A DNA stretch of 64,000 bases from a bacterium (GCA_037130175.1 JBAXTN010000002.1:56455-120454), one strand, 5' to 3'; counted from the first letter of the stretch, positions 18,596 through 51,909 are shown. Notes: generated by a model from the letters alone, not told the origin. Made by a program: numbers and translations.

Positions 18596-20458
18596 TCAAG
18601 AAATCTTATATTCAGGAACTATTCTGTTCAGCCACTTTTTAAGTTCATCTTTACTCATAGAGTGAAGTTGAGAAGATATGTGATTCAATTCATGAATAAT
18701 CGAATTATTAAATGAATTTCTTATCAAACATCTAACTTTAGGGTGAGTTGTAAGTATAATGTTTTCTCCCTCATGAATCGGCTCTTCGTAGAGTTTCTCA
18801 CCTGGACGGAGTCCAGTAAATTCGATTTTAATATCTTCGTCTGGTCTAAACCCACTTAGTTCGATCATCTGTCGAGCTATATCATTAATTTTTATCGGAT
18901 CCCCCATATCAAGCACAAAGACCTCACCTCCCTTGGACTGTGTTGCACTTTGAAGTATAAGCCCAACAGCTTCAGGAATACTCATGAAGTAGCGGGTTAC
19001 ATCCGGATGGGTTACTGTAACAGGTCCTCCCCATTCGATCTGTTTGCGGAATGTTGGAATGACACTTCCAGATGACCCAAGAACATTGCCGAACCTGACC
19101 GATGACAAAATTGTATTATTCTTTGGATCATGTTGTACAGCTGCCACAGTGAGTTCCGCAACTCTCTTAGTAGCTCCCATAACATTGGTTGGGTTCACTG
19201 CTTTATCTGTTGAAACAAGAATCATTTTTTTGCTGGCATGTCTTGAAGCGGCTAGAGATATTACCATCGTTCCAATCGAGTTGTTAAGGATTGCCTCATC
19301 CGGCTGTCTTTCCATGAGTGGAACATGCTTGTGAGCCGCCGCATGGAAAACCAGTTCCGGCTTTTCTTTTTCAAAGACGCCTTCTACCCGAGCCTCATTG
19401 CAAATACTTCCAGCAACAGGTTCAATATCAATCCATTTCCAATCACGAACAAGCTCCTGTTCAATGGCAAAAAGAGCCGGCTCACTCCTCTCCAACAAGA
19501 TTATTTTTTTAGGCCCTCTACTTGCAATTTGACGACAAAGTTCGCTTCCTATACTTCCTCCAGCTCCAGTGACTAAGACAACCTTATCACGAATCAGTGA
19601 TTCAATTGCTGTGTCATCAAGTCTGACTGGATCTCGTCCAAGTAAATCTTCGGACTCCACATGACGCAGGTGGCTTACCGTAACATGACGATGTAGAAGC
19701 TGAGTAACCGAAGGAAGAATATCATGCTGAACCCCTGTCTTATTCAGAATCTCAACAGTTTCACGCACGACACCAGGAGATGCTCTTGGCATCGCTATTA
19801 TAGCATGGGTTATTTGTAAACTGTTAACAATCTCCGGTAAGTCAGCACGGTTACCCATGATTTTTCTTCCATGGATTGCACTTCCTTTTTTTTGGGGGTC
19901 ATCATCAACAAAACAGATAACATCCATCCCCAATCCTGATTTTGATTGAATCTCGTGCATAAGAGAGGCTCCCGCTTCCCCTGCCCCTATGATGGCTACT
20001 TTCTTACGGCGCAAATGTGCGATTTCTGAATCGGCTTTGCCTTCACGATAAATTCTCATGAGCGTCCTCAAAGAATAAAGCGTCCCTACGGAGATGAGAA
20101 AGTCAGTCATAATTACACCCCTTGGGACGACATGACTTCCCTTACTTCCATACCAGATGCAAAGCGCAATCAGCGTCGTTGTTCCCATCGCCAGAATCAC
20201 ACGCTTGGCATCAGAAAGACTAAAATATGTGAGCAGACTCCTAAACTGACCAAAGATTAGTAGAGTCGCCAGCTTTATGGGAAGTATCCAGAGGAGTGTT
20301 ACTTTAAATCCTAGCCAATATTCTTTCGGAACCGCAAAATCGAAACGAAGAAGTAAGCTCATCCACAGCGAGAAGATGGCAACTGTCCCATATCCTATCG
20401 CCAGAATAATATTTCTAGTATACATGGGAAAAAGTGACGAAAATAAAAGTTTTTTCAT
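18596..20458 (-). CDS. pglF: Membrane-bound UDP-GlcNAc 4,6-dehydratase (PglF/WbpM/CapD family)
   Basis: 4 N-terminal TMs, GAGEAG, TGAGGSIGSE, HAAAHKHVP, STDKAV.P.NVMGATK, RFGNVLGSSGSV, GLRPGEKLYEE. Confidence 0.92.
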   Translation of the reverse strand: MKKLLFSSLFPMYTRNIILAIGYGTVAIFSLWMSLLLRFDFAVPKEYWLGFKVTLLWILPIKLATLLIFGQFRSLLTYFSLSDAKRVILAMGTTTLIALCIWYGSKGSHVVPRGVIMTDFLISVGTLYSLRTLMRIYREGKADSEIAHLRRKKVAIIGAGEAGASLMHEIQSKSGLGMDVICFVDDDPQKKGSAIHGRKIMGNRADLPEIVNSLQITHAIIAMPRASPGVVRETVEILNKTGVQHDILPSVTQLLHRHVTVSHLRHVESEDLLGRDPVRLDDTAIESLIRDKVVLVTGAGGSIGSELCRQIASRGPKKIILLERSEPALFAIEQELVRDWKWIDIEPVAGSICNEARVEGVFEKEKPELVFHAAAHKHVPLMERQPDEAILNNSIGTMVISLAASRHASKKMILVSTDKAVNPTNVMGATKRVAELTVAAVQHDPKNNTILSSVRFGNVLGSSGSVIPTFRKQIEWGGPVTVTHPDVTRYFMSIPEAVGLILQSATQSKGGEVFVLDMGDPIKINDIARQMIELSGFRPDEDIKIEFTGLRPGEKLYEEPIHEGENIILTTHPKVRCLIRNSFNNSIIHELNHISSQLHSMSKDELKKWLNRIVPEYKIS

Positions 20459-20481: not shown

Positions 20482-21669
20482 TCATCGTACTGCCCTCTTC
20501 ATTATCTCCGTGAGTACATCAGTAACTTTATCAATGTGTTTTTCAAGCAATGTGGGATGAACTTGGAACATAAGACTTGTCTCGCCGAGTTGTCGGGCAA
20601 CTGGAAGTCTTGTTTCTGGCCTCCAAGTTGTTCCCTCAAAGGCTTTCTCAAGATATATTTCCGGACATGATCCGGTCAGGCAAGGAACCCCTGCCTCTTG
20701 AATTTCCATCATAATTCGATCCCTGGTCCACTCATCTTTTAATAGTGTGTTAACAACAAAAACATAGGCCTTGTAAGCAGCATGCCCCCCCCCCTCCACA
20801 ATCTTTGGAGATCGTAGGCCAGGCAATTCATCAGCAGCTTTCCAGATGCATTGCGCATTACTAAGTCGTTGCTGCGTCCACGCTTCCATCTTCTTTAACT
20901 GGATACGCCCCATCACTCCCTGTATTTCTGTCATCCGCCAGTTCGTTCCAAAACTTTCATGAAGCCATCGAAAACCTGGCCCATGGTTGCCATGGTAAAC
21001 CGTCTCCCAGTTCTTCCCGTGATCCTTGTGAGACCACATAGCCTTCCAGAGATCAGGGTCGTTTGTGGTCACCATCCCCCCCTCTCCTCCAGTTGTCATG
21101 ATTTTATCTTGGCAAAATGACCATGTACCCACATCGCCTATACTGCCAACCATTTTTCCTTTATAAGATGCACCGTGGGCTTGAGCACAGTCTTCAATAA
21201 CCCTGATCCCGTGTTTTCTGGTCAATTCCAGAATCGGATCCATGTCACAAGGTGCACCTGCAAGATGCACACAGATCACGGCCTTTGTCCGAGATGAAAT
21301 TCGCTGAGAGATGCTCTGTGCCGTGATATTTTGCGTAAATTGATCAACATCAACAAATATTGGAGCGGCTCCAACCAGAACAATTGAGCTGACGGTTGCA
21401 AAGTAACTTCTTGGAGTAACGATCACCTCGTCACCAGGGCCAATACCCAAAGATTTCAGCGCTAACTCGATAGCGACGGATCCATTGCTGAGTGCGACAG
21501 CGTGAGCAGTGCCTGAAAATTCCGCAAATTCCTTTTCAAAAAGGCGACACTCCTCTCCTGTCCAGTAATTGACTTGTCCGGATTGAAGTACTTTGCTCAC
21601 AGCCGCAATTTGTTCCTCTGTGTAAGAGGGCCAAGCAGGCCAGAGTAATGTGCTTTCTCGGGTACTCAT
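20482..21669 (-). CDS. pglE: DegT/DnrJ PLP-dependent sugar aminotransferase (PglE-like)
   Basis: EDCAQAHGA, SFCQDKIMTTGGEGGM, GTNWRMTE; lies between pglD and pglF homologs. Confidence 0.88.
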   Translation of the reverse strand: MSTRESTLLWPAWPSYTEEQIAAVSKVLQSGQVNYWTGEECRLFEKEFAEFSGTAHAVALSNGSVAIELALKSLGIGPGDEVIVTPRSYFATVSSIVLVGAAPIFVDVDQFTQNITAQSISQRISSRTKAVICVHLAGAPCDMDPILELTRKHGIRVIEDCAQAHGASYKGKMVGSIGDVGTWSFCQDKIMTTGGEGGMVTTNDPDLWKAMWSHKDHGKNWETVYHGNHGPGFRWLHESFGTNWRMTEIQGVMGRIQLKKMEAWTQQRLSNAQCIWKAADELPGLRSPKIVEGGGHAAYKAYVFVVNTLLKDEWTRDRIMMEIQEAGVPCLTGSCPEIYLEKAFEGTTWRPETRLPVARQLGETSLMFQVHPTLLEKHIDKVTDVLTEIMKRAVR

Positions 21670-22316
21670 TTGCTTGACCTAACGGCTGTCTTTATAGGCT
21701 TTGCGGGCACTCCAGTCACGACACATCCTTGAGGAATATCTGAAACTACAGCCGCCCCGGCACCGACCATCGCTCCGGCTCCAATCGAGATGCCCTGTTT
21801 AACAGAGCTACCCACACCTATCATGGCAAGGTCTCCTACACACACTGATCCGGCAAGATGCACACCGGGACAGATATGAACTCCTGCACCGAGTCGGCAG
21901 TCATGATCCACCGAGGCACCTGTGTTGATAATATCTCCTTTTCCTATTTCCGTACCGATATTTACTGCTGCGTTTGCAAAAATTACTGTTCCATTTCCAA
22001 CCAGACTTCTTTTGCTCACAACCGCCCTAGGGTGGATAAGAGAAGGCAACGCCCCTCCACACCGCTCCACCTCATCCATCAGCTCTTTTCTGGCTGTATT
22101 GGAGCCTATCCCAAGAGCAAAATCACATCCTCCAACAGCAAGTTGACTTAATTCGGATACCCGTCCGATAACCTGCCATTCCTCCCATATCTCTAATGCC
22201 GGATAGCGATCATCAAGAAACACGATCTCGCACCATTTGTCCAGCAAATCGCAAAGGTCGGCTACCACCTTCCCATGTCCGCCTGCTCCAATAATTACAA
22301 TCCGTTTACTTCTCAT
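21666..22316 (-). CDS. pglD: Sugar N-acetyltransferase (PglD/NeuD family, hexapeptide repeats)
   Basis: IIGAGGHG, INTGASVDHDC, left-handed beta-helix repeats, terminal GVPAK. Confidence 0.88.
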   Translation of the reverse strand: MRSKRIVIIGAGGHGKVVADLCDLLDKWCEIVFLDDRYPALEIWEEWQVIGRVSELSQLAVGGCDFALGIGSNTARKELMDEVERCGGALPSLIHPRAVVSKRSLVGNGTVIFANAAVNIGTEIGKGDIINTGASVDHDCRLGAGVHICPGVHLAGSVCVGDLAMIGVGSSVKQGISIGAGAMVGAGAAVVSDIPQGCVVTGVPAKPIKTAVRSSK

Positions 22317-22905
22317 TTCTAGTTCCTTTAAATTTCTCGGCACTCACATTGTCTGACTGATTTACGCCGCTTCCATAAAGCACTTTAAGTAACGTCAAAA
22401 ATAGAATTTTTAAATCCAAAAAAGTAGTTTTATTATCAACATACCATACATCGAGTCGGAACTTATCCTCCCAAGAGATAGCATTTCTACCGTTAACCTG
22501 AGCCCATCCGGTGATACCAGGTCGCACTTCATGTCGACGGTTCTGCTCAGCAGTATAAAGCGGAAGATACTCAACCAGCAATGGCCGCGGCCCAATCAGA
22601 CTCATATCCCCTCTGAGCACATTCAAAAGCTGAGGAATCTCATCAAGACTCATCCTTCGCAGCAATTTTCCCAATGCTGTTACCTGATGATTATGACAAA
22701 GTGATACCCCTTGACTAGGAGTTGTCTGTACCATGGTTCGAAATTTCAGCAAAAAAAACACCCTTCCATTTTTTCCAGGGCGAGGCTGGACAAAATATAT
22801 CGGCCTTCCCATGGCGCACAAGATCGCAAAACTAACGACTAGAAAAACCGGAGAGAGAATCACGAGTAAGAATATTGAGATCAATATATCAAAAATTCTC
22901 TTCAT
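22306..22905 (-). CDS. pglC: Monotopic phosphoglycosyl transferase (PglC-like, initiating)
   Basis: KRIFD, KFRTM, SLDEIPQL.NVL.GDMS.IGPRP, RPGITGWAQVNGRN. Confidence 0.9.
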   Translation of the reverse strand: MKRIFDILISIFLLVILSPVFLVVSFAILCAMGRPIYFVQPRPGKNGRVFFLLKFRTMVQTTPSQGVSLCHNHQVTALGKLLRRMSLDEIPQLLNVLRGDMSLIGPRPLLVEYLPLYTAEQNRRHEVRPGITGWAQVNGRNAISWEDKFRLDVWYVDNKTTFLDLKILFLTLLKVLYGSGVNQSDNVSAEKFKGTRNEK

Positions 22906-42197: not shown

Positions 42198-42241
42198 ATG
42201 TATTTTAAATATTCAATTATTTGCCATCTGTTTTACATTAA

Positions 42242-43033
42242 TTAATTGTTATTTGCGAGAGGAACCCATGACGCAAGATGATATCGGCCCTCAATAAGCT
42301 TTTCTCTTGTTTTCATTAGCCCATCGCCGACAAAATTATACAAATGAGCGGTGGCAACGGCATCAATCCGTGGATCTGAAAGTCCGCTCTCAAAATGATG
42401 ATGATTGCCAGCTCCCCCGGCCAGAATCAGAGGCATAGGAAACTTTTCCGGTAGGATATCCAGCATTTGAAAATCATACCCCTGTCCAGTTCCGTCACGA
42501 TCCATTGAATTGAGGTAGAGCTCCCCAACTGGGAGTGAGACGATGGACTGGATAATTTTACTAGCCTCCTCCTCAAGAATGCACTCTCCGTTTCCATGGC
42601 GGATATGATAGGTTTCATTCCCGTTTCTCTTGCAGTCTATTGAGCCGACCACACACTGCTGGCCAAATTCACCGGCCAGTTCTGTGATGAATTCCTGGTC
42701 CGTGAATAGCGATGAATTCACTACCACTTTATCAGCACCAGCACGCAGCAATGCAGAGGCATCTTCCAATCGGTGTATTCCTCCACCAGCTGCTACAGGG
42801 ATAAAACACCCATCTGTCAGAGATTTCAAACACTCACTAAATGCCGCTATGTTGCGCTCCCCTCTTGTGACATCAAGCACAATTAATTCATCTATTGCAA
42901 AAGCTATTCTTGAAAAGTTATAGTTTTTTTTAAGCCATTTCAGATCTCCCACCCTCTGTAATCGAAAATTCCTGCTCAGCATGAAATACCCTTCGCAATA
43001 AAGCAGGGTAAAAATAATCCTTTTTTTTGGCAT
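42242..43033 (-). CDS. hisF: HisF-like cyclase subunit of sugar amidotransferase (WbuZ-like)
   Basis: DEL..LD, GGGI, GADKVVVN, MDRDGTGQGYD; in an LPS locus beside a WbuX homolog. Confidence 0.85.
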   Translation of the reverse strand: MPKKRIIFTLLYCEGYFMLSRNFRLQRVGDLKWLKKNYNFSRIAFAIDELIVLDVTRGERNIAAFSECLKSLTDGCFIPVAAGGGIHRLEDASALLRAGADKVVVNSSLFTDQEFITELAGEFGQQCVVGSIDCKRNGNETYHIRHGNGECILEEEASKIIQSIVSLPVGELYLNSMDRDGTGQGYDFQMLDILPEKFPMPLILAGGAGNHHHFESGLSDPRIDAVATAHLYNFVGDGLMKTREKLIEGRYHLASWVPLANNN

Positions 43034-43665
43034 TAGGAGTGTTTCTGAAGAAAGTTTTGCAGCAATACGAGACCGTTTGTCTGGCTTTTTTCAGGGTGAA
43101 ACTGAACTCCAAAGATGTTATCAGACTCGAATGCGGCAACAAACTCCACTCCATGACAGCAAGTGGCTATACCGCTCGCCATCATCCCGGGCAGCATCCG
43201 GTAGGAATGGACGAAATAAAAATCTGCCTCCTCCGGCAATCCCTTGAAAAGTCTCTGGGTAGTTCCCCTAGAAACAGTATTAAAACCGATATGAGGGATC
43301 TTTCTCCCATCAAGTTCCAATGGCGTAAATCTATCAACAGAATTGGGAATAAGACCAAGCCCCTTCGAATCACCATCTTCGGTTCCTTGCGACCCCAGTA
43401 GTTGCATGCCAAGGCAAATTCCAAGGAGATCTACGCCACGGACTTTCACAGCGTGAAGGATGGCTTCGTCTAACCCAGACTCCTTGAGTCTCTCTGCTGC
43501 ACGCCTAAAAGAACCAACACCCGGAAGAATCAAGGTATCCGCATGGGAAACCTCGTTCGGGTTACTGGTTACTTTTGCAGAACACCCCAGAAAAGCTAGG
43601 GCGCTCGTAATTGACCAAAGGTTCCCCATTCCATAGTCAATCACTGTGACGGAAGGCATTCCCAT
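43033..43665 (-). CDS. hisH: HisH-like glutamine amidotransferase (WbuY-like)
   Basis: DYGMGNL, LPGVGSF, GICLGMQ, FYFVHSY, QFHPEKS. Confidence 0.9.
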   Translation of the reverse strand: MGMPSVTVIDYGMGNLWSITSALAFLGCSAKVTSNPNEVSHADTLILPGVGSFRRAAERLKESGLDEAILHAVKVRGVDLLGICLGMQLLGSQGTEDGDSKGLGLIPNSVDRFTPLELDGRKIPHIGFNTVSRGTTQRLFKGLPEEADFYFVHSYRMLPGMMASGIATCCHGVEFVAAFESDNIFGVQFHPEKSQTNGLVLLQNFLQKHS

Positions 43666-44792
43666 CAGTGAACCTGAAATTTAGGAATCCATCGGCCCCC
43701 GACTTTTTCGAAGAGTTCTTTGTTAACCCAATGGTCGACTACGACATCAAATTCGTCCTGATTCATCTTATAGTACTCAAGATATGTTTCTATATATTCT
43801 TCCGGATAATGACCGTCATAGAGACGAACAAGGTTTACTGCCTGATCGCGAGTCATGGCCCCTCGTCGGATTTCAATTCCGGCATCCTGGGTGGCACGCC
43901 CAAATCCAAACTTGATATACATCATGTAGGTATGCAGTGCATAAAGCGCCTGATCGTTCTGCGAGAAATTTGTAAAGGTTCCCGAGTTGTTTGCGTCTGC
44001 TTCCTGAAGCCCGCAGTGTTCTTTTGCAACAAGATAGTTTCTGTAGGGATCCCATGATTCAAAATATGACCAATGGGTAATTTTAAGGTCTTTCCCTGCG
44101 AGTTCTGCCTCATTTGGAAAGAGGAAAAAGTAGAGTTCTGAATCGGAAAGCCCTGAAGATCGCAATACCTTTTCGTGCCCTCCCTCCAAATAGATCCGCT
44201 TCATATAAGCTATATCATACATTGCACGATTCTTGGACTCGGTCGATCCTCCATATTCCACTTCACCATCCTCGCCATAGAATAGAAGAGGGATATTCAA
44301 ATTGACGGCTAATCTTACTACTCCGGCCTGAATGGCGGTAAGCCAGCCGTAATAGGGAAATCCCTTCTCGATGAACCCCTGACGATTCAGTATCTGCATG
44401 ACCCTGGCATCAGGATTGATCTGGATGTGGTTATACCCGCTTTCAATATAATTTCGGAGATTCATGTTCCCCAGTTCCAATGATAGCGCTGGCGTAACGG
44501 TCACAGCCAATGGATGCATTCCATACTCATGCTTCAGTTGATGGGAAACATAAGATCCGTCCTTTCCTCCACTGACAGGCACAATACAGTCAAACCCCCC
44601 GTTTCTGGAGCGGTATTTAGCGAGAATCTCAACCAACTCTCGCTGACGGATTTCCCAATCCAGCGTCTTCTTCTCTTCCATCCACTGGCAAGCGTTGCAC
44701 CAACCACGATCATTAAATGTGATTCTGGGTCGGGTCGACATGTTAAGACAGTTCGAACACCAGAAAACTGAAGTTTGTTTGCTTTGTGGCAT
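43665..44792 (-). CDS. N-acetyl sugar amidotransferase (WbuX/PseA/PtmG family)
   Basis: CxxC..TRPR...CNAC, PP-loop VSGGKDGS, YGEDGE.EYGG, KFGFGRAT. Confidence 0.88.
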   Translation of the reverse strand: MPQSKQTSVFWCSNCLNMSTRPRITFNDRGWCNACQWMEEKKTLDWEIRQRELVEILAKYRSRNGGFDCIVPVSGGKDGSYVSHQLKHEYGMHPLAVTVTPALSLELGNMNLRNYIESGYNHIQINPDARVMQILNRQGFIEKGFPYYGWLTAIQAGVVRLAVNLNIPLLFYGEDGEVEYGGSTESKNRAMYDIAYMKRIYLEGGHEKVLRSSGLSDSELYFFLFPNEAELAGKDLKITHWSYFESWDPYRNYLVAKEHCGLQEADANNSGTFTNFSQNDQALYALHTYMMYIKFGFGRATQDAGIEIRRGAMTRDQAVNLVRLYDGHYPEEYIETYLEYYKMNQDEFDVVVDHWVNKELFEKVGGRWIPKFQVH

Positions 44793-44851
44793 GATGATTT
44801 TTTAGTTTGAATCAGTTGAGACCGATCCTGGAGAGAATAACCTGCCGTAAG

Positions 44852-44962
44852 TTATTGGGTTGCATGAGATAATATGATGAAAAAGTTGTGATCGACAGGA
44901 GTAGAGGCCTTTCCTAAGAAGGGTTCACAAAGTGGGCTTTTTCCCTTGTGATCAGACTGCAT
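44852..44962 (-). pseudogene. legC: Probable 5' remnant of a LegC-type aminotransferase gene
   Basis: ATG 44962 overlaps the legB stop and reads MQSDHKGKSPLCEPFLG then unrelated sequence (36 aa). PLxEPxxG matches LegC/DegT N-termini, and the position is syntenic. Confidence 0.55.
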
Positions 44963-45932
44963 ATTCATCCACTCGATACGATTGGCCGTTACTACGAGCC
45001 CATTCGATCATTTTGGCAAGCCCCTCTTCTAAGCTGATCTTCGGATGCCAATCCAGCAGTTGCAAGGCTTTGCTGTTATCTGCCAATAACAATCCTACTT
45101 CACTCTTTTCGGGACGAACACGAGCAGGGTCGCTTTCGATTTCGGCATCGCAATCGATCAGATCGCGGATGATTTCAAACAATTCCCCGATGGATACATC
45201 ACGGTTCGAGCCGAAATGGATCGTCTCACCAGCGATTCCTTCTGCTGTAGCCGCCTTGATGAAGGCATCCACTGTATTGGCGACATAATTCAGATCACGG
45301 CGTGGAGTGGTGCTGCCGAGATGAATGCTGCGCTTTCCCGCCAGCATTTGACTAATGATTGTGGGAATCACGGCGCGGGCGGACTGGCGCGGGCCGAAAG
45401 TATTGAACGGACGCACTGTCACAGCATCGAGTTCAAACGATTTATGAAAAGATTCGACCAACTTGTCTGCACCGATTTTTGAAGCTGAGTAAGGCGACTG
45501 CCCTTGAAGGGGGTGATCCTCGGTGATCGGAGCAAATATTGCTGTTCCGTAAACCTCGCTGGTGGATGTATTCAGCAGCCTCCTTACTCCTGATCTAAGA
45601 CTGGCTTTGAGCACATTGAGGGTCCCCACGACATTCGTCTGAACATAGGCCTCTGGTGCTTCGTAGGAATAAGGAATCCCAATGAGCGCCCCTAGGTGAA
45701 AGACAGTATCGCATCCCTCGATGGCCTTCTCCACAGATCCCTGATCCCTGAGGTCTCCGTGCACAAACTCAATCGAGCCGCGATGAGTCGAGGAGTCAAG
45801 CCATCCTCGGGAACCCGAGGAATTATAATGAACAAAAGCGCGGACATTGGCCCCTGCTTCGACAAGACCCTCCGTAAGATGGCTTCCGATAAAACCGGCG
45901 GCACCGGTGACGAGTACTTTTTTCCCTTTCAT
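44952..45932 (-). CDS. legB: NDP-GlcNAc 4,6-dehydratase, LegB-like
   Basis: TGAAGFIGSHL, HYNS, LIGIPYSY.AP..Y, STSEVYGTA, QSPYSASK, RPFNT.GPRQSARAVIP, RPEKSEV. Confidence 0.85.
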   Translation of the reverse strand: MKGKKVLVTGAAGFIGSHLTEGLVEAGANVRAFVHYNSSGSRGWLDSSTHRGSIEFVHGDLRDQGSVEKAIEGCDTVFHLGALIGIPYSYEAPEAYVQTNVVGTLNVLKASLRSGVRRLLNTSTSEVYGTAIFAPITEDHPLQGQSPYSASKIGADKLVESFHKSFELDAVTVRPFNTFGPRQSARAVIPTIISQMLAGKRSIHLGSTTPRRDLNYVANTVDAFIKAATAEGIAGETIHFGSNRDVSIGELFEIIRDLIDCDAEIESDPARVRPEKSEVGLLLADNSKALQLLDWHPKISLEEGLAKMIEWARSNGQSYRVDEYAV

Positions 45933-45951
45933 ATTTTTCGTGGTTTTTTAT

Positions 45952-46983
45952 TCATCCATTACGGGCTCGCTTCAGTTCCTCCCTATGACCCACATCAATC
46001 CATTCATCATTAACCTGCCAGGCCCCAATCTTCACTGTATTGAGAAGTGATAAATTGATGAGTTCGGTGATCGGGAAGAATTTTTTTGGGACCATCTTGA
46101 GAAGCGGGGGATTGACCACATAGATCCCCGCATTGATTGCCCGAACAATCGTTGGCTTCTCCACAATCGAGTGAATCTGGCCGTTTTCCTGTTCAACACA
46201 ACCATAGGGAATCTGATGGGTGTAATCATAAACACCAACAGTCATTCCATAGCCACCGATTTCATGGAATGAGAGCATATCTTCAAGGTTGGCTTGAGTC
46301 ACAAGATCCCCGTTGGAAACAAAAAGCGGACAGGAGGGTAGTGTAGGGAGAAGACTGAGTGCCCCTCCTGTTCCCAAGGGCTCTTCCTCGTGCAGATATT
46401 CGATTTGACACCCAAATCTGCTTCCATCCTCGAAATATTCCTCGATCACTTCGTAGAGGTGGTTGACCGCCAAAAAAATCCGCCGAATTCCAAATCCCAC
46501 AAAATGCAGGATTAGTCTCTCAAGAATCGGACGCCCGGCAACCTTCAGCATCGGTTTCGGGATTGTTCTGGTAAGTTCCCCTAATCTGGTTCCCTTTCCG
46601 CCGGCCATGATCACGGCACAGTTGGGACGCTCGACCGCACCGAGAAGTTCATGCAGAAGGTGCACTCCATGAACATGACCTCCTGGATCGAGAACGGGTA
46701 TTTGATCGATCCTCATTGCCTGCATGAGATCAATTGCCTCGGCGCGTGAGGATCCAATCTCTACAGTGAACACCTCTTTTTTATAAAACCCCATCACCCC
46801 GTCCCCAAGCGAGGCCCCACTGAGGAGGGCCCGACGGATATCTCCATCAGTCATAGCACCTTGGAGTTTCAGGTCTGAATCCACAACCAAGGCTATTCCA
46901 ACGCCTCCGCTATCTAATGCAACCAAGGCTTCCCTCAATGTCCCATCAATTGGAACACACATGCTTTGAATAGTAGGTCTCAC
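45952..46983 (-). CDS. ptmE: CBS-domain nucleotidyltransferase (PtmE/LegX-like)
   Basis: CBS pair with TDGDIRRALL, MAGGKGTRL...PKPML, PLGTGGAL, NGDL, EKP, W.DVG. Confidence 0.85.
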   Translation of the reverse strand: MRPTIQSMCVPIDGTLREALVALDSGGVGIALVVDSDLKLQGAMTDGDIRRALLSGASLGDGVMGFYKKEVFTVEIGSSRAEAIDLMQAMRIDQIPVLDPGGHVHGVHLLHELLGAVERPNCAVIMAGGKGTRLGELTRTIPKPMLKVAGRPILERLILHFVGFGIRRIFLAVNHLYEVIEEYFEDGSRFGCQIEYLHEEEPLGTGGALSLLPTLPSCPLFVSNGDLVTQANLEDMLSFHEIGGYGMTVGVYDYTHQIPYGCVEQENGQIHSIVEKPTIVRAINAGIYVVNPPLLKMVPKKFFPITELINLSLLNTVKIGAWQVNDEWIDVGHREELKRARNG

Positions 46984-47120
46984 GGTTTATTTTTTTGACG
47001 AGGCGTTTTGGCCGGCACACTGGCAACGGTATCATGCGGTCCAGAAGCCAGCCGAGCATTCAGGACTGATCTATCATGCCTCTCATTGCCAATAATTACG
47101 CAGTTCATAGGAGTATTCAT
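46980..47120 (-). pseudogene. neuD: Internally deleted NeuD/LegH acetyltransferase remnant
   Basis: 46 aa: MNCVIIGNERHDRSVLNA (cf. IIGxGGHAxSV) joined directly to DTVASVPAK (cf. terminal VxGVPAK); stop overlaps the ptmE start. Confidence 0.65.
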
Positions 47121-47133
47121 GGATAAGAAGATA

Positions 47134-48303
47134 TCAAGCGTGCCGTCCTTGTTCGATATCGTGAAATTTCTTGCGCATGAAACGCTCGTCAATACTTGTC
47201 TGAAGCAAAACCCCGGCAATGCTCTCCGCCGCATTGCCCACCCCGTAGGGATTGACGAGTTTTTCAAGTGATTTCCCAAAGGATTCGGAGAGTGCCTTTG
47301 AAATTGCTGACTCGATCTCCATCCGCGAGTTTCCGCAGTTGATGACATTTGATGGCTGCATCCTGCCTTCCTGCCTGCTTCCAATGTTCACAACAGGAAG
47401 ACCAAAGCTGGCTGCTTCAAGAATTCCACTTGAGGAATTGCCTATCATGGCAGCCGAGCATCGCATGAGACTGAAGTATCTCAGAGTGCCAAGATTCTCG
47501 ACGAAATGGATTTTTTGGTTATCCGAGGCCTGTTCTGTGTATTTGCGATGGAGGAGTTCCCCTCCGGGGTCGGCGTTGGGTGCCGTGATCACAACTGTCC
47601 GGTTTGTACTGACCAGTGAATCGAGAAGCCCTTCCACAACAGCTTCCAAATTGATATTTTCCAGTGTGGGCGGATGGAATGTCACAACCAGAGGCTTGGC
47701 TTCAAACTCAAATCCCAATTGCTCTTGCAGTTCCGATGGAGAGAGGAGTTTCAGAGCTTTGAGATTATCGAGTGCCAGAGCCCCTGTCACATGAACTCTC
47801 CATGGCTCTTCACCCATTTGTACAATTCGTGCCGCATGGGACGCTGTGGATGCAAAGTGAAGATGACTCATTTTTGTCATGGAATGCCGCATCACATCAT
47901 CAACGGCACCCAAGGTCAGTTCTCCACCATGCAGATGTGCGATTGCTTTCCTTGCGAAGACGGCAGCGGTAGCTGCAGCGAACATTTCAAACCGATCTCC
48001 CAGCACCACTATAAGATCGGGCTGCAAGCGCCCATAGGCAGCACTCATTCCCATAACTCCCTCTGAAAATGCGGCAGTCATGCCGACTGCATCATCCGAT
48101 CTTACGGGAACCACCACTTTGGCGGCCAAGGAAAATCCATCGGCTGTGAGTTCATCCAGCGAAGATCCCTGACGGCTGTGAAAATGCATGCCACCTGCAA
48201 TGATCTGTAGTTCGCACCCCTGTGCATCCTGCAGGCTATGAAGCAGTGGTCTGAGGATCCCGTAATCGGATCTTCCAACGGTAATGACCGCAATCTTTTT
48301 CAC
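47134..48303 (-). CDS. neuC: Hydrolysing NDP-sugar 2-epimerase (NeuC/LegG)
   Basis: RSDYG, GMH, LGDRFE, HLHGGE, DD.MRH..TKMSHLHF, GNSSSGI.EA, RQ.GR; GTG start 48303 overlaps the neuB stop. Confidence 0.92.
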   Translation of the reverse strand: MKKIAVITVGRSDYGILRPLLHSLQDAQGCELQIIAGGMHFHSRQGSSLDELTADGFSLAAKVVVPVRSDDAVGMTAAFSEGVMGMSAAYGRLQPDLIVVLGDRFEMFAAATAAVFARKAIAHLHGGELTLGAVDDVMRHSMTKMSHLHFASTASHAARIVQMGEEPWRVHVTGALALDNLKALKLLSPSELQEQLGFEFEAKPLVVTFHPPTLENINLEAVVEGLLDSLVSTNRTVVITAPNADPGGELLHRKYTEQASDNQKIHFVENLGTLRYFSLMRCSAAMIGNSSSGILEAASFGLPVVNIGSRQEGRMQPSNVINCGNSRMEIESAISKALSESFGKSLEKLVNPYGVGNAAESIAGVLLQTSIDERFMRKKFHDIEQGRHA

Positions 48304-49355
48304 GATAGCATTCCCTGTTGAAACTGCACGCCCTTGGGAATGAATGTCAGCGTGCGTCTGCCCAACAATTTCCTCCACTCGGATGGTGGAATTCCCCCGG
48401 CTGGACGCAGGGCCGTCAGATGATCCTCGGCAATCTCTGTATCAGCAGGAATATCCACTGCCGCTGCCAGACTTCTTCTCGCCACCATGGCTACCTGATC
48501 CTCCCCTGGGGCAGGCATTTTGAGACCATTACCCAATGCGGCCTCCACAATTTTTGCCTTTTTTATCATCGCTCCAAACTCACTGGGTTCCAATGATGCG
48601 GCATGATCGGGCCCCGGCATATTCCTATTGAGGGTGAGGTGTTTTTCTAACACGGATGCCCCCAATGCAACGGCTGCCAAGGCAATCACATCGTCCAGCG
48701 TATGGTCCGAAAGTCCGGTTGGCAGATGGAAGGAATCCTCCATTCTCTGCATGGCACGAAGGTTCATCGTTTCCGGGGAGGCCGGATAGTTGCTAACACA
48801 TTGCAAAAGTATCAATCCTGCATTACAAGCACTTCGGATCGCAGCGACAGCGTCTCGCACCTCATTCTCGTCGGACATTCCCGTGGAAAGAATCAGAGGA
48901 AGCCCCAAACGGGCGAGTCGGACAAGAAAAAGATGGTTGGATAGATCGCCGGAACCGATCTTGATCGCATTACAGCCAAGATCGACGATCAAACGAGCAT
49001 TCTCCTCGTCAAACGGAGTGCAGAGAAAATCGATTTTCCTTTCTTTGCAATAGTCCCTTAAATCACGAAACTGCCCTGCGGAAAGGGCAAGAGAATCCAG
49101 CATCTCTTTTTGTGATTTTTTAGCCCCCATGTTCCGGCTCTGGTATTCGGCCTGGGGGGCATCACTAGTGACCAGTTTTTCCGCATCGAATGCCTGAAAC
49201 TTGACCGCATCGGCCCCTGCTTCCACTGCCGCATCTACAAGTTGACGGGCCAGTTCCAAGCTGCCGTTGTGATTCACTCCAGCCTCGGCAATAAAGTAAC
49301 AGGGTTGTCCGAGTCCTACCCGCCTCGAACCTATAATGAGCTCATCTATTCTCAT
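48300..49355 (-). CDS. neuB: Nonulosonic acid synthase (NeuB/LegI) with C-terminal SAF domain
   Basis: IAEAGVNHNG, DAVKFQ, TPFD, KIGSG, LSTGM, SDHT, EKH.TL....GPDH.AS, ARRS. Confidence 0.93.
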   Translation of the reverse strand: MRIDELIIGSRRVGLGQPCYFIAEAGVNHNGSLELARQLVDAAVEAGADAVKFQAFDAEKLVTSDAPQAEYQSRNMGAKKSQKEMLDSLALSAGQFRDLRDYCKERKIDFLCTPFDEENARLIVDLGCNAIKIGSGDLSNHLFLVRLARLGLPLILSTGMSDENEVRDAVAAIRSACNAGLILLQCVSNYPASPETMNLRAMQRMEDSFHLPTGLSDHTLDDVIALAAVALGASVLEKHLTLNRNMPGPDHAASLEPSEFGAMIKKAKIVEAALGNGLKMPAPGEDQVAMVARRSLAAAVDIPADTEIAEDHLTALRPAGGIPPSEWRKLLGRRTLTFIPKGVQFQQGMLS

Positions 49356-50155
49356 CACCAAACGGTCATTCCACCATCCACCACGAAATTCTGACCCGTG
49401 ATGTAGTTTCCTAGATCAGACATCAGGAGTTGAGCGATTCCCTTGAAATCTTCTTCCGCAGCCATTCTTCCAAGCGGCACCCTCTCTGTATATTTCTGAA
49501 CAAATGATGCGGGTTGTCCTCTACTGATACCACCGGGACTGATACAGTTCACTCTGACCTCGGGAGCGAGTGCAGTTGCCAGATAGCGTGTTAGCTGGAT
49601 CAATCCTCCCTTGCTGGCATTATAGGCGGCTGGATTGCCCATTGATGTCCCTTCATAAAGACGGAAGTCCGGGGCCGCGACTCCATAGATTGAAGCAATA
49701 TTGACAACTGATCCGGCTCCTCCCTTTGCAAGAAGAGGCGCCGCTTTTTGCGTTAGTAAAAAGGGAACAAACAGATTGATATCCATGGCAGCAGACCAAG
49801 CCTCGACTCCCTGCTGGGAAAACGGAACCGCCCAACCGGAGAGTTTGGATGCCCCCGTAAAGGCCGCATTATTGACCAGAATGTCAAACCTTCCAACGAA
49901 TGACTCTATTTCTGCGGGCAATTTACTGACCGCCGCATGGTCACCCAGATCAAGTACTCGTCCTTCGCACCGCGTTCCGAATCGAGAAGAGAGTTCCGAT
50001 GCTGCATCAAGGACCGCCTCGTTGAAGTCCACAAGCACTACGGTTCCCCCCAGTTCAGCAACCACTTCACCAAACATCCGACCGAGATGACCGGCGCCAC
50101 CCGTAATCAGGGCAACGCGTCCTTTTAGGGATTGTAACTCTTTAAGATTTCTCAT
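49355..50155 (-). CDS. SDR oxidoreductase (PtmA-like)
   Basis: TGGAGHLG, LVNNA, ASIYG..APDF..Y, YNASKGG, RVNCISPGG, QP..F...Y; start ATG 50155. Confidence 0.85.
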   Translation of the reverse strand: MRNLKELQSLKGRVALITGGAGHLGRMFGEVVAELGGTVVLVDFNEAVLDAASELSSRFGTRCEGRVLDLGDHAAVSKLPAEIESFVGRFDILVNNAAFTGASKLSGWAVPFSQQGVEAWSAAMDINLFVPFLLTQKAAPLLAKGGAGSVVNIASIYGVAAPDFRLYEGTSMGNPAAYNASKGGLIQLTRYLATALAPEVRVNCISPGGISRGQPASFVQKYTERVPLGRMAAEEDFKGIAQLLMSDLGNYITGQNFVVDGGMTVW

Positions 50156-50849
50156 GGACTGTTCGTTGTTTGAGTAAAAACCTTGCCCACTCAAGGTCAA
50201 GAGCATCATCAATATCGACAGCTCGCTCTTTGGGAATTTCCACGCAACGAAGATTTCCCTCAAACAAGAAGCCGGAATTTATCACAAAACTTGTTTTCGC
50301 GAGATAAGCCACCGTCGTGACATCGAATACCTCAGGGGTATCCTGCCTTCGCGCCACGCCTTGACCCGCGCACACCAATCGACAAAATCCATCCTGATCT
50401 CGTTTTACCATGTTGAAATGGGGATTCCTAATGGCTTTTTGCACCGTGATCACCGCATCGGCTAGTGGATGTGCTGCCATCTCGATCAGGCATTTTTGAA
50501 CATCTTCACTGGAACGCAACGGGGAAGTCGCCGGCAATGATAACATCCAGTCAAAGGAACCTGTTCTTTGGGTCATCTCTCCGACCGCATGCTTCCATGC
50601 CATAAACTCGGATGAGGTATCGCCAGCAAGCTCCAAGGGGCGAATGAAAGGTACCTCGGCACCGTAGCAGCGCGCAACCTCGGCAATTTCCTCATCGTCG
50701 GTAGATACGACGACCCTTTCAACATCCGAAAGGGCGAGACCGCAGATGATCGAATGGGCAAGGAGGGGTTTCCCTCCCAGATCCTGAAGATTTTTTCGTG
50801 GAATTCCCTTGGATCCTCCTCGCGCAAAAATGAAGCAGATCGTTCTCAT
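50142..50849 (-). CDS. neuA: CMP-nonulosonate synthetase (NeuA/LegF/PtmB)
   Basis: ARGGSKGIPRKN, VSTD, RP.ELA.D, TSPLR, RRQD, DID...D. Confidence 0.92.
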   Translation of the reverse strand: MRTICFIFARGGSKGIPRKNLQDLGGKPLLAHSIICGLALSDVERVVVSTDDEEIAEVARCYGAEVPFIRPLELAGDTSSEFMAWKHAVGEMTQRTGSFDWMLSLPATSPLRSSEDVQKCLIEMAAHPLADAVITVQKAIRNPHFNMVKRDQDGFCRLVCAGQGVARRQDTPEVFDVTTVAYLAKTSFVINSGFLFEGNLRCVEIPKERAVDIDDALDLEWARFLLKQRTVHEKS

Positions 50850-51835
50850 TCGTCAATCGCATCTAGTGCTACAGTCTCTACGCGTGCATGATTCACTGCA
50901 GAATCTCTTGCTGCATCACAGACAACAAGAGAATGCAGGGATTCATTCAATCCAACGGCAGTTCCAATGGATGGATTCAGAAATGCATCATGCTCGTCCC
51001 TGAGCATTTCATTTCGGGATTGTGGAAAATGCCAGTTCTCTTCCTCTTCCAATCCTTTGAAATGAACAGATTGGGAAATTGCATCCAAATGAAGAGTGCC
51101 CTTCTCCCCAAAAACGAAGAAATTTCGTCGTGCTGGACGGCTTAGATAATCCAGCGCAACTTGAACCCGAACATCACCAGGCACGAGCAGATGTAGGAAC
51201 GCCTGTTCCTCAGCTTCTATGCCGAGTCGCCCAGTATTCACCAAATCTGCACCCGCGGAGTGAGGCCATCCCAAGATCCATCCAATGTAATCGATCTCGT
51301 GGATAAGATCCCGTAGTACCCCTCCCTGCGTTGGGGAAGACGAATAACTTTGGCGATAATTCGAACTTGGCCTCCAATCCGGCAACCAAGATCTGCATTC
51401 CACGAATGCGGAATGAATATCACCCACTTTATCCAATGAAGTTCTGAAGTGGAGCAACGCATGGGAATAGCGCATACTTAAGCCGCAAAAGATTCTCTCC
51501 TTCTGTGATGAGTCTAAGGCCAATAACGGCCCTGCTGCCTGCATGGATAACGCTATAGGCTTCTCAACAAGGACAATTAGTCCAACTTCAAGTGCTGCAA
51601 TAGTATCTTCAATATGACAAACCGTATCAGTAGCAATAATGGCATGTGTAGCTCCTGCGGCTTGAGCTTCTGACCAAGTATCAACACACGCCCAGCCCTC
51701 ACTGCTCAGGCTCTTTATTCTCTCCTCTCTTTTGGGAAAAAGAAGCACTTCATGTCCCGCACCACGCAGAACTTCGGCGTGCCTCATCCCGATACTACCG
51801 GTTCCACGAACAACTATTATTTTATGCGAAATCAC
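50846..51835 (-). CDS. Gfo/Idh/MocA oxidoreductase (PtmF-like)
   Basis: G.GSIG.RH, VEKP, LPDWRP...YR.SYS, GGVLRDL.HEIDY. Confidence 0.88.
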   Translation of the reverse strand: MISHKIIVVRGTGSIGMRHAEVLRGAGHEVLLFPKREERIKSLSSEGWACVDTWSEAQAAGATHAIIATDTVCHIEDTIAALEVGLIVLVEKPIALSMQAAGPLLALDSSQKERIFCGLSMRYSHALLHFRTSLDKVGDIHSAFVECRSWLPDWRPSSNYRQSYSSSPTQGGVLRDLIHEIDYIGWILGWPHSAGADLVNTGRLGIEAEEQAFLHLLVPGDVRVQVALDYLSRPARRNFFVFGEKGTLHLDAISQSVHFKGLEEEENWHFPQSRNEMLRDEHDAFLNPSIGTAVGLNESLHSLVVCDAARDSAVNHARVETVALDAIDE

Positions 51836-51909
51836 CAGAGTTAAGCTAATCGTTATAATTAAAATAGGTAAGATGCATTACTCATGTGCACGCATAAAAT
51901 TGAGCTTCT

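What the first reader, a model, noticed from the sequence alone, without database searches (positions are those of the whole stretch)
43665..51835. Rewired nonulosonic-acid pathway: only the two C7-acetamido-installing genes are deleted
Seen: ptmF-like, neuA, ptmA-like, neuB, neuC, ptmE and legB are full-length with intact motifs, while legH/neuD (46980-47120) and legC (44852-44962) survive only as scars at two separate sites. Established: LegC and LegH convert the LegB 4-keto sugar to the 4-acetamido sugar that becomes C7-NHAc of legionaminic acid. Inference A: the 4-keto group is reduced instead (Gfo/Idh/MocA, SDR or Rmd-like enzyme), giving a 3,5,9-trideoxy, 7-hydroxy nonulosonate. With the adjacent amidotransferase trio this would resemble fusaminic acid (5-acetamidino) and leave a hydroxyl free for carbamoyl or acyl groups. 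Inference B: PglE/PglD, or the whole UDP-linked PglFED route as in Legionella, substitute in trans, coupling two glycan modules. Either would be an unusual pathway caught in transition.
Basis: partly seen in the sequence, partly recalled or inferred. Interest (0 to 1): 0.85.

Follow-up and report, generated by a model that had tools for sequence, protein, structure and literature searches.

The report
Legionaminic acid cluster missing legC
A lake bacterium's gene cluster for a sialic-acid-like surface sugar has lost its own aminotransferase (and probably its acetyltransferase) yet keeps the remaining genes under selection, most likely because a neighbouring bacillosamine module supplies those two steps.

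Summary
Partly confirmed. On the minus strand lie intact ptmF-like, neuA, ptmA-like, neuB, neuC, ptmE and legB genes, then wbuX/hisH/hisF.

The legC scar is real. The 36-codon ORF at 44852-44962 keeps the legC start codon overlapping the legB stop, plus 17 LegC codons. A metagenome relative (L082) and a lake contig both read on into intact legC past 44912.

The legH scar (46980-47120) is only weakly supported: 4 and 7 of 3000 shuffles reach its score, and hhalign gives P=0.034.

The genome has no LegC-family gene: best 184.9 bits against a cut-off of 420, while 8 of 8 relatives pass.

The same locus, 22 kb downstream, holds a PglF-like dehydratase, a close homologue of a proven UDP-4-keto-6-deoxy-GlcNAc C4 aminotransferase (524.6 bits to PDB 7L7X), a NeuD/PglD-family acetyltransferase and a PglC-like transferase.

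A diverged strain carries the same deletion. Its listed coding differences are 23 synonymous to 3 non-synonymous, so this is not simple decay.

A 7-hydroxy product is not excluded, at about 0.12.

The parts
50846..51835 (-). ptmF-like Gfo/Idh/MocA oxidoreductase
   Evidence: PF01408, PF22725 and PF02894. It is 28-29% identical to the genes at the same place in L041, L043, L044 and L047, which also have legC and legH.
50142..50849 (-). neuA/legF-like CMP-nonulosonate synthetase
   Evidence: TIGR03584, positions 1-221 of 222, 134.2 bits; PF02348.
49355..50263 (-). ptmA-like short-chain dehydrogenase. The real start is probably near residue 40 of this ORF.
   Evidence: PF13561 and PF00106; NF050062 PtmA 110.2 bits, below its cut-off.
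48300..49361 (-). neuB/legI nonulosonate synthase
   Evidence: TIGR03569 398.8 bits (cut-off 399.65); PF03102 plus SAF. Nearest solved structure is B. subtilis SpsE, 1VLI. It is 34-47% identical to the NeuB of seven related loci.
47134..48378 (-). neuC/legG hydrolysing 2-epimerase
   Evidence: TIGR03568, positions 1-365 of 365, 417.6 bits. 253.9 bits to PDB 5ZLR, 'GDP/UDP-N,N'-diacetylbacillosamine 2-epimerase (hydrolyzing)'. It is the only Epimerase_2 gene in the genome.
46980..47120 (-). Possible legH remnant: a 46-codon ORF in the 150-bp neuC-ptmE spacer
   Evidence: It starts 13 nt after the neuC stop, and its stop overlaps the ptmE GTG. There is a weak N-terminal match to the NeuD family. 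Searches found nothing.
45952..46983 (-). ptmE (legX): CBS domain plus sugar-1-phosphate nucleotidyltransferase
   Evidence: PF00571 and PF00483. It is 30-40% identical to PtmE of seven related loci and 75% identical to the L082 fragment. All 4 listed X10 differences are synonymous.
44952..45932 (-). [quoted passage not shown]
   Evidence: TIGR04180 435.8 bits. 87% identical to L082 and 50-63% to others. Listed X10 differences are 9 synonymous to 1 non-synonymous.
44852..44962 (-). legC remnant: start codon plus 17 LegC codons (44962-44912), followed by unrelated sequence up to a stop
   Evidence: (loose end at 44912).
43665..44792 (-). wbuX N-acetyl sugar amidotransferase
   Evidence: TIGR03573 361.6 bits, above its 203.2 cut-off.
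43033..43665 (-). hisH-like glutamine amidotransferase subunit (WbuY type)
   Evidence: TIGR01855 211.9 bits.
42242..43033 (-). hisF-like cyclase subunit (WbuZ type)
   Evidence: TIGR03572 219.5 bits, under its 299.7 cut-off.
21666..22343 (-). NeuD/PglB/VioB-family N-acetyltransferase; candidate for the LegH step in trans
   Evidence: TIGR03570 211.3 bits, above its 160.8 cut-off, and the only gene in the genome that passes. 165.8 bits to PDB 4M98.
20482..21669 (-). DegT-family C4 aminotransferase; candidate for the LegC step in trans
   Evidence: 524.6 bits to PDB 7L7X, aligned over residues 11-385. 7L7X is Pcryo_0638, shown to make UDP-4-amino-4,6-dideoxy-GlcNAc (PMC8040287, abstract). It scores only 184.9 bits on the LegC model.
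18596..20458 (-). PglF-like membrane-anchored UDP-GlcNAc 4,6-dehydratase
   Evidence: 620 aa. PseB and FnlA models match residues 289-566, all under their cut-offs.
22306..22905 (-). PglC-like small phosphoglycosyltransferase
   Evidence: TIGR03025, C-terminal domain, 241.2 bits.

Best explanation
This is a horizontally acquired, GDP-type legionaminic acid module: PtmE makes the GDP-hexosamine, LegB the 4-keto-6-deoxy sugar, and NeuC, NeuB and NeuA the nonulosonate and its CMP form. WbuX/HisH/HisF probably convert the 5-acetamido group to an acetamidino group. The module sits in an O-antigen-type locus of an uncultured lake bacterium.

Its own aminotransferase gene legC was destroyed by a deletion after codon 17. 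Its acetyltransferase gene legH was probably lost as well.

I infer that the two missing C4 steps are done in trans by the Pgl-type aminotransferase (20482-21669) and the NeuD/PglD-family acetyltransferase (21666-22343) of the same locus. Those enzymes also make UDP-diNAcBac for the PglC-like initiating transferase. The product would then still be a 5,7-diamino sugar (Leg5Ac7Ac or Leg5Am7Ac).

Only this reading predicts the exact pattern seen. LegC and LegH become redundant, while PtmE and LegB stay necessary because the hydrolysing epimerase needs, or prefers, a GDP-linked substrate.

Shown: the gene content, the legC deletion, the absence of a LegC-family gene, the presence of the Pgl module, and purifying selection after the deletion. 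Inferred: that the Pgl-type enzymes accept GDP-linked substrates, the nucleotide preference of NeuC, and the product.
For: GENE CONTENT
- Gene set and full profile coverage.
- legC deletion.
- No LegC-family gene in a 96.5%-complete genome: best 184.9 bits against a cut-off of 420. In contrast, 8 of 8 aminotransferases next to legB in relatives score 445-535 bits.

TRANS CANDIDATES
- The window aminotransferase scores 524.6 bits to 7L7X. This is Pcryo_0638, which gives the gluco-configured 4-amino sugar (PMC8040287, abstract).
- The acetyltransferase belongs to the same NCBIfam subfamily as the relatives' LegH proteins and is nearest to a diNAcBac-forming enzyme, 4M98.
- The other DegT pairs in the genome look like 3-aminotransferases of the DesV/QdtB/WbpE type.

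LITERATURE (passages seen)
[quoted passage not shown] T. forsythia LegB used only GDP-GlcNAc, and its LegG released GDP from GDP-diNAcBac (PMC5378307).
- legC and legH are encoded away from legB, legG and legF in Brevundimonas subvibrioides (bioRxiv 10.1101/2022.03.25.485807).
- In Pcryo_0638 the uracil is held mainly by stacking and the ribose is not contacted (PMC8040287). In the window protein the two stacking residues read Phe and Leu (counted by eye).

SELECTION AFTER THE DELETION
- X10 contigs bridge both gaps: record 9 at 44529-45153 and record 13 at 46040-47220.
- Of the 40 differences that one search lists, out of 254 in all, 26 are coding and 23 of those are synonymous: legB 9:1, ptmE 4:0, wbuX 8:2, neuC 2:0. 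22 of the 26 fall on third codon positions, binomial p=1e-7.
- On the two bridging contigs alone the count is 10 synonymous to 2 non-synonymous.
- The 159-bp scar spacer holds 14 listed differences and a 2-bp insertion.
Against: - No test here shows that the Pcryo_0638-like aminotransferase takes a GDP-linked keto sugar. The paper reports UDP substrates only, and 'GDP' does not occur in its text.
- The name of the nearest solved NeuC homologue says GDP/UDP. NeuC might therefore take UDP-diNAcBac directly, which would leave PtmE and LegB unexplained.
- Only 40 of the 254 differences in run X10 were listed. X10 holds more than one haplotype, so the synonymous excess is a sample.
- The genome is a draft of 82 contigs at 96.5% completeness. 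A legC on unassembled DNA cannot be ruled out.
- Several positions that are invariant in orthologues differ in the window's NeuA (12 of 44) and NeuB (8 of 62). This could reflect a changed substrate, or just distance.
Confidence: 0.5

Rival explanations
1. UDP route only, as described for Legionella. The Pgl module makes UDP-diNAcBac, and NeuC hydrolyses and epimerises it directly. PtmE and LegB no longer feed the nonulosonate and are kept for another 6-deoxy-hexosamine of the O-antigen, or as a second feed.
For: - A complete Pgl-type module lies in the same locus.
- The nearest solved NeuC homologue is named a GDP/UDP-diNAcBac 2-epimerase.
- A UDP-linked legionaminic acid pathway is on record (Glaze 2008, as cited in PMC6137143; passage seen).
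- Three unassigned extended-SDR sugar enzymes in the window (12337-13284, 28631-29581, 31495-32631) could use a LegB product.
Against: - It does not explain why legB and ptmE stay under purifying selection after the deletion (legB 9:1 and ptmE 4:0 synonymous to non-synonymous). They still sit in translational coupling distance inside the cluster.
- It needs an extra, unidentified use for GDP-4-keto-6-deoxy-GlcNAc.
Confidence: 0.15
2. The LegB 4-keto product is reduced instead of aminated. NeuC, NeuB and NeuA then build a 5-acylamido-3,5,9-trideoxy, 7-hydroxy nonulosonate, with a 5-acetamidino group added by WbuX/HisH/HisF. This would be a legionaminic-series counterpart of the trideoxy fusaminic acid.
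For: - Exactly the C4-amination genes are gone while legB and ptmE stay under selection.
- A natural 3,5,9-trideoxy 5-acetimidoylamino nonulosonate exists in Fusobacterium nucleatum 25586 (Vinogradov 2017, as cited in PMC7371886; passage and reference seen).
- Candidate reductases exist: three unassigned extended SDRs in the window.
- NeuA and NeuB differ at 12 of 44 and 8 of 62 positions that are invariant in orthologues.
Against: - No dedicated 4-ketoreductase was gained in or next to the cluster. The ptmA-like and ptmF-like genes are standard parts of clusters that have legC and legH.
- It needs NeuC, NeuB, NeuA, WbuX and the glycosyltransferase all to accept a 4-hydroxy or 7-hydroxy analogue.
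- A proven-type C4 aminotransferase and a LegH-family acetyltransferase are present in the same locus, so amination is the simpler path.
Confidence: 0.12
3. Simple decay. The island is dying after the loss of legC and legH, and the other genes are intact only because too little time has passed.
For: - The island is foreign. No LegB orthologue occurs in 22 same-genus genomes.
- GC is 0.49-0.53 in the island against 0.31-0.46 in the flanks.
- Two genes are broken or lost.
- An intact-legC haplotype still exists in a lake sample.
Against: - The deleted allele is present in strains whose scar spacers differ at 14 of 159 listed positions plus an indel.
- Listed coding differences are 23 synonymous to 3 non-synonymous.
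- There is no stop or frameshift in the ten remaining genes.
- The deletion-bearing form was found in runs of several studies.
Confidence: 0.05

Closest known systems
GDP-linked CMP-legionaminic acid pathway of Campylobacter jejuni (Schoenhofen 2009; seen only as cited in PMC5378307, PMC6137143 and bioRxiv 10.1101/2022.03.25.485807, since the paper itself is not held)
   Same: PtmE-type nucleotidyltransferase, LegB, LegG/NeuC, LegI/NeuB and LegF/NeuA, plus ptmA-like and ptmF-like genes.
   Different: There is no LegC-family gene anywhere in the genome and no LegH in the cluster. The cluster lies in an O-antigen-type locus with an ABC transporter, not a flagellar locus.
UDP-linked legionaminic acid route of Legionella pneumophila (Glaze 2008; seen as cited in PMC6137143)
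   Same: diNAcBac is made by Pgl-type enzymes outside the neuABC genes. The 5-acetamidino decoration of the Legionella O-antigen is from my recall.
   Different: Here PtmE and LegB of the GDP branch are kept and conserved. That the Legionella locus lacks them is recalled, not tested.
Tannerella forsythia FDC 92A2 legionaminic acid locus (PMC5378307; passages seen)
   Same: GDP-specific LegB plus PtmE, with the LegH role assigned to a PglD-like acetyltransferase. [quoted passage not shown]
   Different: T. forsythia keeps a dedicated LegC next to LegB. Here legC is deleted.
Brevundimonas subvibrioides dispersed leg genes (bioRxiv 10.1101/2022.03.25.485807; passages seen)
   Same: legB-legX(ptmE)-legG-legF lie at one place, and legC and legH lie elsewhere in the genome, so these two steps are supplied in trans.
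   Different: There the authors treat the trans-encoded genes as LegC and LegH orthologues. Here the only candidate aminotransferase belongs to the Pcryo_0638 (Pgl-function) type and scores 184.9 bits on the LegC model.
UDP-diNAcBac enzymes Pcryo_0638 and Pcryo_0637 of Psychrobacter cryohalolentis (PMC8040287; abstract and passages seen)
   Same: The window aminotransferase scores 524.6 bits to Pcryo_0638 over residues 11-385.
   Different: The window acetyltransferase is nearer to the PglB acetyltransferase domain 4M98 (165.8 bits) than to Pcryo_0637, entries 7L7Y/7L7Z (about 56 bits). The uracil-stacking Tyr and Phe read Phe and Leu in the window protein.
Trideoxy fusaminic acid of Fusobacterium nucleatum 25586 (Vinogradov 2017, as cited in PMC7371886)
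   Same: It would resemble the product under rival A: 3,5,9-trideoxy, 7-hydroxy, 5-acetamidino.
   Different: The configuration differs (gluco series), and from my own reasoning it probably arises from a pseudaminic-type route.

Membership tests
GDP-type legionaminic acid biosynthesis cluster | PtmE/LegX: CBS domain plus nucleotidyltransferase | tested here: met
   PF00571 and PF00483; 30-40% identical to PtmE of seven related loci.
GDP-type legionaminic acid biosynthesis cluster | LegB 4,6-dehydratase | tested here: met
   TIGR04180 is the best family, at 435.8 bits and full length, but under the 475 cut-off. 50-87% identical to LegBs that sit next to LegC-family genes. Nucleotide specificity was not tested.
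GDP-type legionaminic acid biosynthesis cluster | LegC-family aminotransferase (TIGR04181) | tested here: not met
   Only a 17-codon remnant is left. The genome's best score is 184.9 bits against a cut-off of 420. Positive control: 8 of 8 relatives score 445-535 bits.
GDP-type legionaminic acid biosynthesis cluster | LegH N-acetyltransferase (NeuD/PglB/VioB family) in the cluster | tested here: not met
   None is in the cluster. There is a weak remnant at 46980-47120. One family member lies 22 kb away at 21666-22343.
GDP-type legionaminic acid biosynthesis cluster | LegG hydrolysing 2-epimerase, LegI synthase and LegF CMP-synthetase | tested here: met
   TIGR03568 417.6 bits; TIGR03569 398.8 bits (cut-off 399.65); TIGR03584 134.2 bits, under its cut-off. 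PDB 5ZLR 253.9 bits.
UDP-diNAcBac (Pgl-type) module | Membrane-anchored UDP-GlcNAc 4,6-dehydratase, C4 aminotransferase, NeuD/PglD-family acetyltransferase and small PglC-type phosphoglycosyltransferase, all adjacent | tested here: met
   Four adjacent genes at 18596-22905. 7L7X 524.6 bits, 4M98 165.8 bits, TIGR03570 211 bits. Activities are inferred from homology.
WbuX/WbuY/WbuZ acetamidino-forming trio | N-acetyl sugar amidotransferase together with HisH-like and HisF-like subunits | tested here: met
   TIGR03573 361.6 bits, above its cut-off. TIGR01855 211.9 bits. TIGR03572 219.5 bits, under its cut-off. The same trio is linked to leg clusters in L044 and L047.

The most novel reading that the evidence does not exclude
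The lineage has switched product. With C4 amination removed, the conserved PtmE-LegB-NeuC-NeuB-NeuA line makes a legionaminic-series 7-hydroxy, 3,5,9-trideoxy nonulosonate carrying a 5-acetamidino group. I know of no such sugar described for the D-glycero-D-galacto series. An unassigned SDR of the locus would act as the 4-ketoreductase.
Probability: 0.12. Interest if true: 0.8.

Novelty: new variant of a known kind. Interest (0 to 1): 0.42.

Why it matters
Legionaminic acid pathways are described as either GDP-linked or UDP-linked, and the use of different nucleotides is thought to keep parallel sugar pathways apart.

Here a natural lineage has lost the dedicated GDP-branch aminotransferase. 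It still conserves the enzymes that make and consume GDP-linked intermediates, next to a UDP-type bacillosamine module.

If the Pgl-type enzymes serve both branches, this is a natural case of cross-talk between the two nucleotide pools. It is also a ready test of how strict that insulation is.

If instead the keto sugar is reduced, it would reveal a new bacterial sialic-acid-like sugar.

Either answer is reachable with four or five recombinant enzymes. The organism is an uncultured lake bacterium, so the value lies in glycobiology and enzyme tools, not in medicine.

Tried and rejected
SCAR DETECTION THAT GAVE NOTHING
- hmmscan of both remnant peptides against NCBIfam and Pfam at E up to 10: no family.
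- TIGR03570 over the own genome at E up to 10: 26 matches, none in the neuC-ptmE spacer.
- The search for homologous proteins with the 46-aa remnant, longer proteins only: 51 candidates, none at E up to 10.
- Smith-Waterman of the spacer frames against 7 LegC and 5 LegH proteins. For legC, the PLCEPxL hit was reached by 6 of 200 shuffles (L038) and 21 of 200 (L040). For legH the score was no better than shuffles.
- A LegC-family HMM built from 9 sequences does not detect even the proven legC remnant: -4.4 bits, reached by 2537 of 3000 shuffles. Such tests therefore have little power for short remnants.
- My impression by eye that the last part of the legB-wbuX spacer encodes the LegC C-terminus in another frame got no support. 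The same holds for my impression that the legH remnant ends with a '(G/S)VPAK' C-terminal motif: HMMER aligned that stretch to the N-terminal domain instead.

OTHER CANDIDATE GENES FOR THE MISSING STEPS
- The C39 DegT plus hexapeptide-acetyltransferase pair is rejected. It is nearest to the 3-aminotransferases DesV and QdtB and to WxcM/WlbB-type acetyltransferases.
- The C7 DegT is also nearest to 3-aminotransferase types.
- The DegT fragment at the end of contig C12 scores 20.6 bits on the LegC model.

OTHER CHECKS
- Promoter and terminator scan of 42000-53200: counts are not above shuffles and nothing stands out in the two spacers.
- dN/dS of window against L082 legB: synonymous sites are saturated (pS 0.785) and pN is 0.082. 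This shows only long-term constraint.
- No RNA holder was listed among the sequencing runs.
- Run X8 has no contig that bridges the neuC-ptmE spacer by 31 letters on both sides; X1 and X10 do.

LITERATURE
- Search for the paper behind 5ZLR/5XVS: nothing useful.
- Schoenhofen 2009 is not held. What I say about the roles of PtmA and PtmF and about the nucleotide preference of C. jejuni LegG is recalled, or taken from citing papers.
- Supplementary files were not opened.
- I ran no search asking whether a leg cluster lacking legC has been described. Searches were about other terms.

NOT DONE
- NeuB phylogeny with Fusobacterium enzymes, because no tool here fetches them by name.
- Taxon of the genome. 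The only hints are that the runs are lake and freshwater metagenomes and that one window protein's nearest Atlas clusters are mostly Pseudomonadota.

Full report
WHAT IS THERE

The window is G000:C12:56455-120454 of a 2.59-Mb draft genome in 82 contigs, 96.5% complete. Nearly all long ORFs run on the minus strand. Together they form one large surface-polysaccharide locus:
- ABC-2 transporter and Wzt-like ATPase at 58561-60801, and glycosyltransferases.
- Methyltransferases, a carbamoyltransferase at 40383-42197 and an MBOAT at 38854-40377.
- A MurJ-like flippase fusion.

Inside this locus, read in the direction of transcription, lie:
- ptmF-like (50846-51835)
- neuA (50142-50849)
- ptmA-like (49355-50263)
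- neuB (48300-49361)
- neuC (47134-48378)
- a 150-bp spacer
- ptmE (45952-46983)
- legB (44952-45932)
- a 159-bp spacer
- wbuX (43665-44792), hisH-like (43033-43665) and hisF-like (42242-43033)

All other junctions in this run overlap or are under 20 bp apart, so the two spacers stand out.

GC is 0.49-0.53 over 44.5-51.5 kb, against 0.31-0.46 on either side. None of 22 same-genus genomes has a LegB orthologue; their best hits are 36% identical or less. The module is therefore foreign to the genus.

THE legC REMNANT IS REAL

In 10 of 15 loci whose LegB is at least 50% identical to the window's, an aminotransferase follows legB directly. These are L038, L040, L041, L043, L044, L045, L047, L082, L083 and L084. 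L045 and L083 give identical figures and may be one sequence. In the other five loci (L039, L042, L046, L048, L049) a nucleotidyltransferase or a NeuD-like gene follows instead. Eight of eight of these aminotransferases that I scanned pass the LegC model, at 445-535 bits against a cut-off of 420.

The closest relative is metagenome contig L082, whose LegB is 87% identical. It has ptmE-legB-legC, and the legC ATG overlaps the legB stop. The window has the same ATG at 44962-44960, followed by 17 codons that match 9 of 17 residues, including PLCEPF. After that come unrelated sequence and a stop at 44852.

Independently, a contig of lake run X10 fits the window down to 44912. Its loose end then continues into codons that I translate by eye as the conserved LegC N-terminal motif seen in L082 (table 7). 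The breakpoint is therefore after 44912.

THE legH REMNANT IS ONLY SUGGESTIVE

The neuC-ptmE spacer holds a 46-codon ORF (46980-47120). It starts 13 nt after the neuC stop, and its stop overlaps the ptmE GTG.
- Residues 6-37 align to positions 5-36 of a NeuD-family HMM that I built from 17 sequences. The score is 4.2 bits, reached by 4 of 3000 peptide shuffles and 7 of 3000 DNA shuffles.
- hhalign against a 14-sequence alignment gives the same N-terminus-to-N-terminus register, with P=0.034 and probability 1.5%.
- The glycine-rich motif is not kept.
- Five other searches found nothing.
- I found no relative with legH in that position. L044 has neuC followed by legH, but neuB comes next there.

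I rate the remnant at about 60% likely to be real.

IS THE FUNCTION ENCODED ELSEWHERE?

There is no LegC-family gene in the genome. The best score is 184.9 bits against a cut-off of 420. LegC proteins of relatives find only 27-34% identical DegT genes.

The same locus, however, holds four adjacent genes 22 kb downstream:
- a PglF-like dehydratase (18596-20458)
- a DegT aminotransferase (20482-21669)
- the genome's only NeuD/PglB/VioB-family acetyltransferase above the cut-off (21666-22343, 211 bits)
- a PglC-like phosphoglycosyltransferase (22306-22905)

The aminotransferase scores 524.6 bits to PDB 7L7X over residues 11-385. That entry is Pcryo_0638, shown to act in UDP-2,4-diacetamido-2,4,6-trideoxy-D-glucose synthesis (PMC8040287, abstract). 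The acetyltransferase is nearest to 4M98. It belongs to the same NCBIfam subfamily as the LegH proteins of L041 and L044.

The other DegT genes, on C39 and C7, resemble 3-aminotransferases.

NeuC is nearest to 5ZLR, deposited as a GDP/UDP-diNAcBac hydrolysing 2-epimerase. It is the only Epimerase_2 gene in the genome.

IS THE CLUSTER DECAYING?

The DNA of 44600-47400 is held by 13 listed runs from 9 studies, all lake or freshwater metagenomes. Seven of the runs may be the source of this DNA. I laid four runs on the window:
- X1 spans the region without any difference, but it may be the source.
- X8, from another study, bridges the legC scar identically (record 25).
- X10, from a third study, holds a diverged strain that bridges both spacers with the same architecture. 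Record 9 (44529-45153) has 32 differences and one 2-bp insertion. Record 13 (46040-47220) has 25 differences and no gap.

One search listed 40 of the 254 differences. Of these, 14 lie in the 159-bp scar spacer and 26 in coding sequence. Of the 26 coding differences, 23 are synonymous and 22 fall on third codon positions, binomial p=1e-7. By gene, synonymous to non-synonymous: legB 9:1, ptmE 4:0, wbuX 8:2, neuC 2:0. On the two bridging contigs alone the count is 10 to 2.

Because the two deletion-bearing alleles differ heavily within the scar itself, the deletion predates their split. legB and ptmE have been under purifying selection since then. This argues against simple decay and against 'caught in transition'. 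The caveat is that only the best-supported rows were shown, and X10 contains more than one haplotype.

HOW IT MOST LIKELY WORKS

Three facts must be explained together:
- loss of exactly the C4 amination and acetylation genes;
- conservation of the GDP-branch genes ptmE and legB;
- a proven-type C4 aminotransferase and a LegH-family acetyltransferase in the same locus.

The reading that predicts all three is that the Pgl-type pair works on both UDP- and GDP-linked 4-keto-6-deoxy-GlcNAc, while NeuC still needs the GDP-linked diNAcBac.

Precedents, from passages I read:
[quoted passage not shown] There LegB used only GDP-GlcNAc (PMC5378307).
- legC and legH act from other genomic sites in B. subvibrioides (bioRxiv 10.1101/2022.03.25.485807).
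- Both UDP and GDP routes are on record (PMC6137143).
- In Pcryo_0638 the base is held mainly by stacking and the ribose is uncontacted (PMC8040287). In the window protein the two stacking residues read Phe and Leu.

Whether this aminotransferase really takes a GDP-sugar is inference. Confidence is 0.5.

The rivals are a UDP-only feed (0.15), a 7-hydroxy product (0.12) and decay (0.05). The remainder is unassigned.

COMPARISON AND NOVELTY

Every enzyme family here is known, and trans supply of LegC and LegH is known. What is unusual is a documented deletion of legC in a lineage that lacks any LegC-family gene, has long conserved the rest of the GDP branch, and carries a UDP-type bacillosamine module in the same locus. 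I file it as a new variant of a known kind. Interest is moderate. It would be high only if the product proves to be a 7-hydroxy nonulosonate.

Noticed in passing
G000:C12:125900-131000 (locus L161:5001-12381), outside the window: A second, divergent NeuB-family gene (108.8 bits to PseI, far under the cut-off) sits beside several others: an AroB-related putative sugar-phosphate phospholyase (TIGR04425, 420.3 bits, above its cut-off), an SDR, an acetolactate-synthase-like ThDP enzyme, an unassigned 566-aa protein, sugar epimerases and glycosyltransferases. This looks like a further, unassigned sugar pathway upstream of the same locus.
   Followed up: partly
window 2873-4888 (-): A fused Acyl_transf_3 plus SGNH O-acyltransferase of 671 aa (Atlas feature score 0.99, structure TM 0.91). 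With the MBOAT at 38854-40377 and the carbamoyltransferase at 40383-42197, the locus carries at least three O-decorating enzymes.
   Followed up: no
window 34951-36801, 37660-38847, 57506-58558, 16140-18509 and 13303-14880 (all -): Five long ORFs (616, 395, 350, 789 and 525 aa) inside the polysaccharide locus have no NCBIfam match at 1e-8. The first three also have no Pfam match at 1e-5.
   Followed up: no
locus L038 (G027:C7) 6481-6942: In a same-order genome, neuC-neuB-ptmE-legB-legC is preceded by a 153-aa ORF and no NeuD-family gene was found: none within the 20 kb fetched, and none in the whole genome at E up to 1e-30. From its size and position I guessed it could be a GNAT-type acetyltransferase, which would mean the LegH step is filled by different families in different clusters. 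It was not scanned.
   Followed up: no
window 24840-27737 (-): A 965-aa ORF whose C-terminal half (residues 508-936) is MurJ-like. The N-terminal 500 residues are unassigned.
   Followed up: no
window 44797 and 44801-44939: Between two deletion-bearing strains the legC scar spacer differs at 14 listed positions plus a TT insertion. The flanking roughly 340 bp of coding DNA shows 7 listed differences. The spacer thus gives a rough neutral yardstick for this population.
   Followed up: partly
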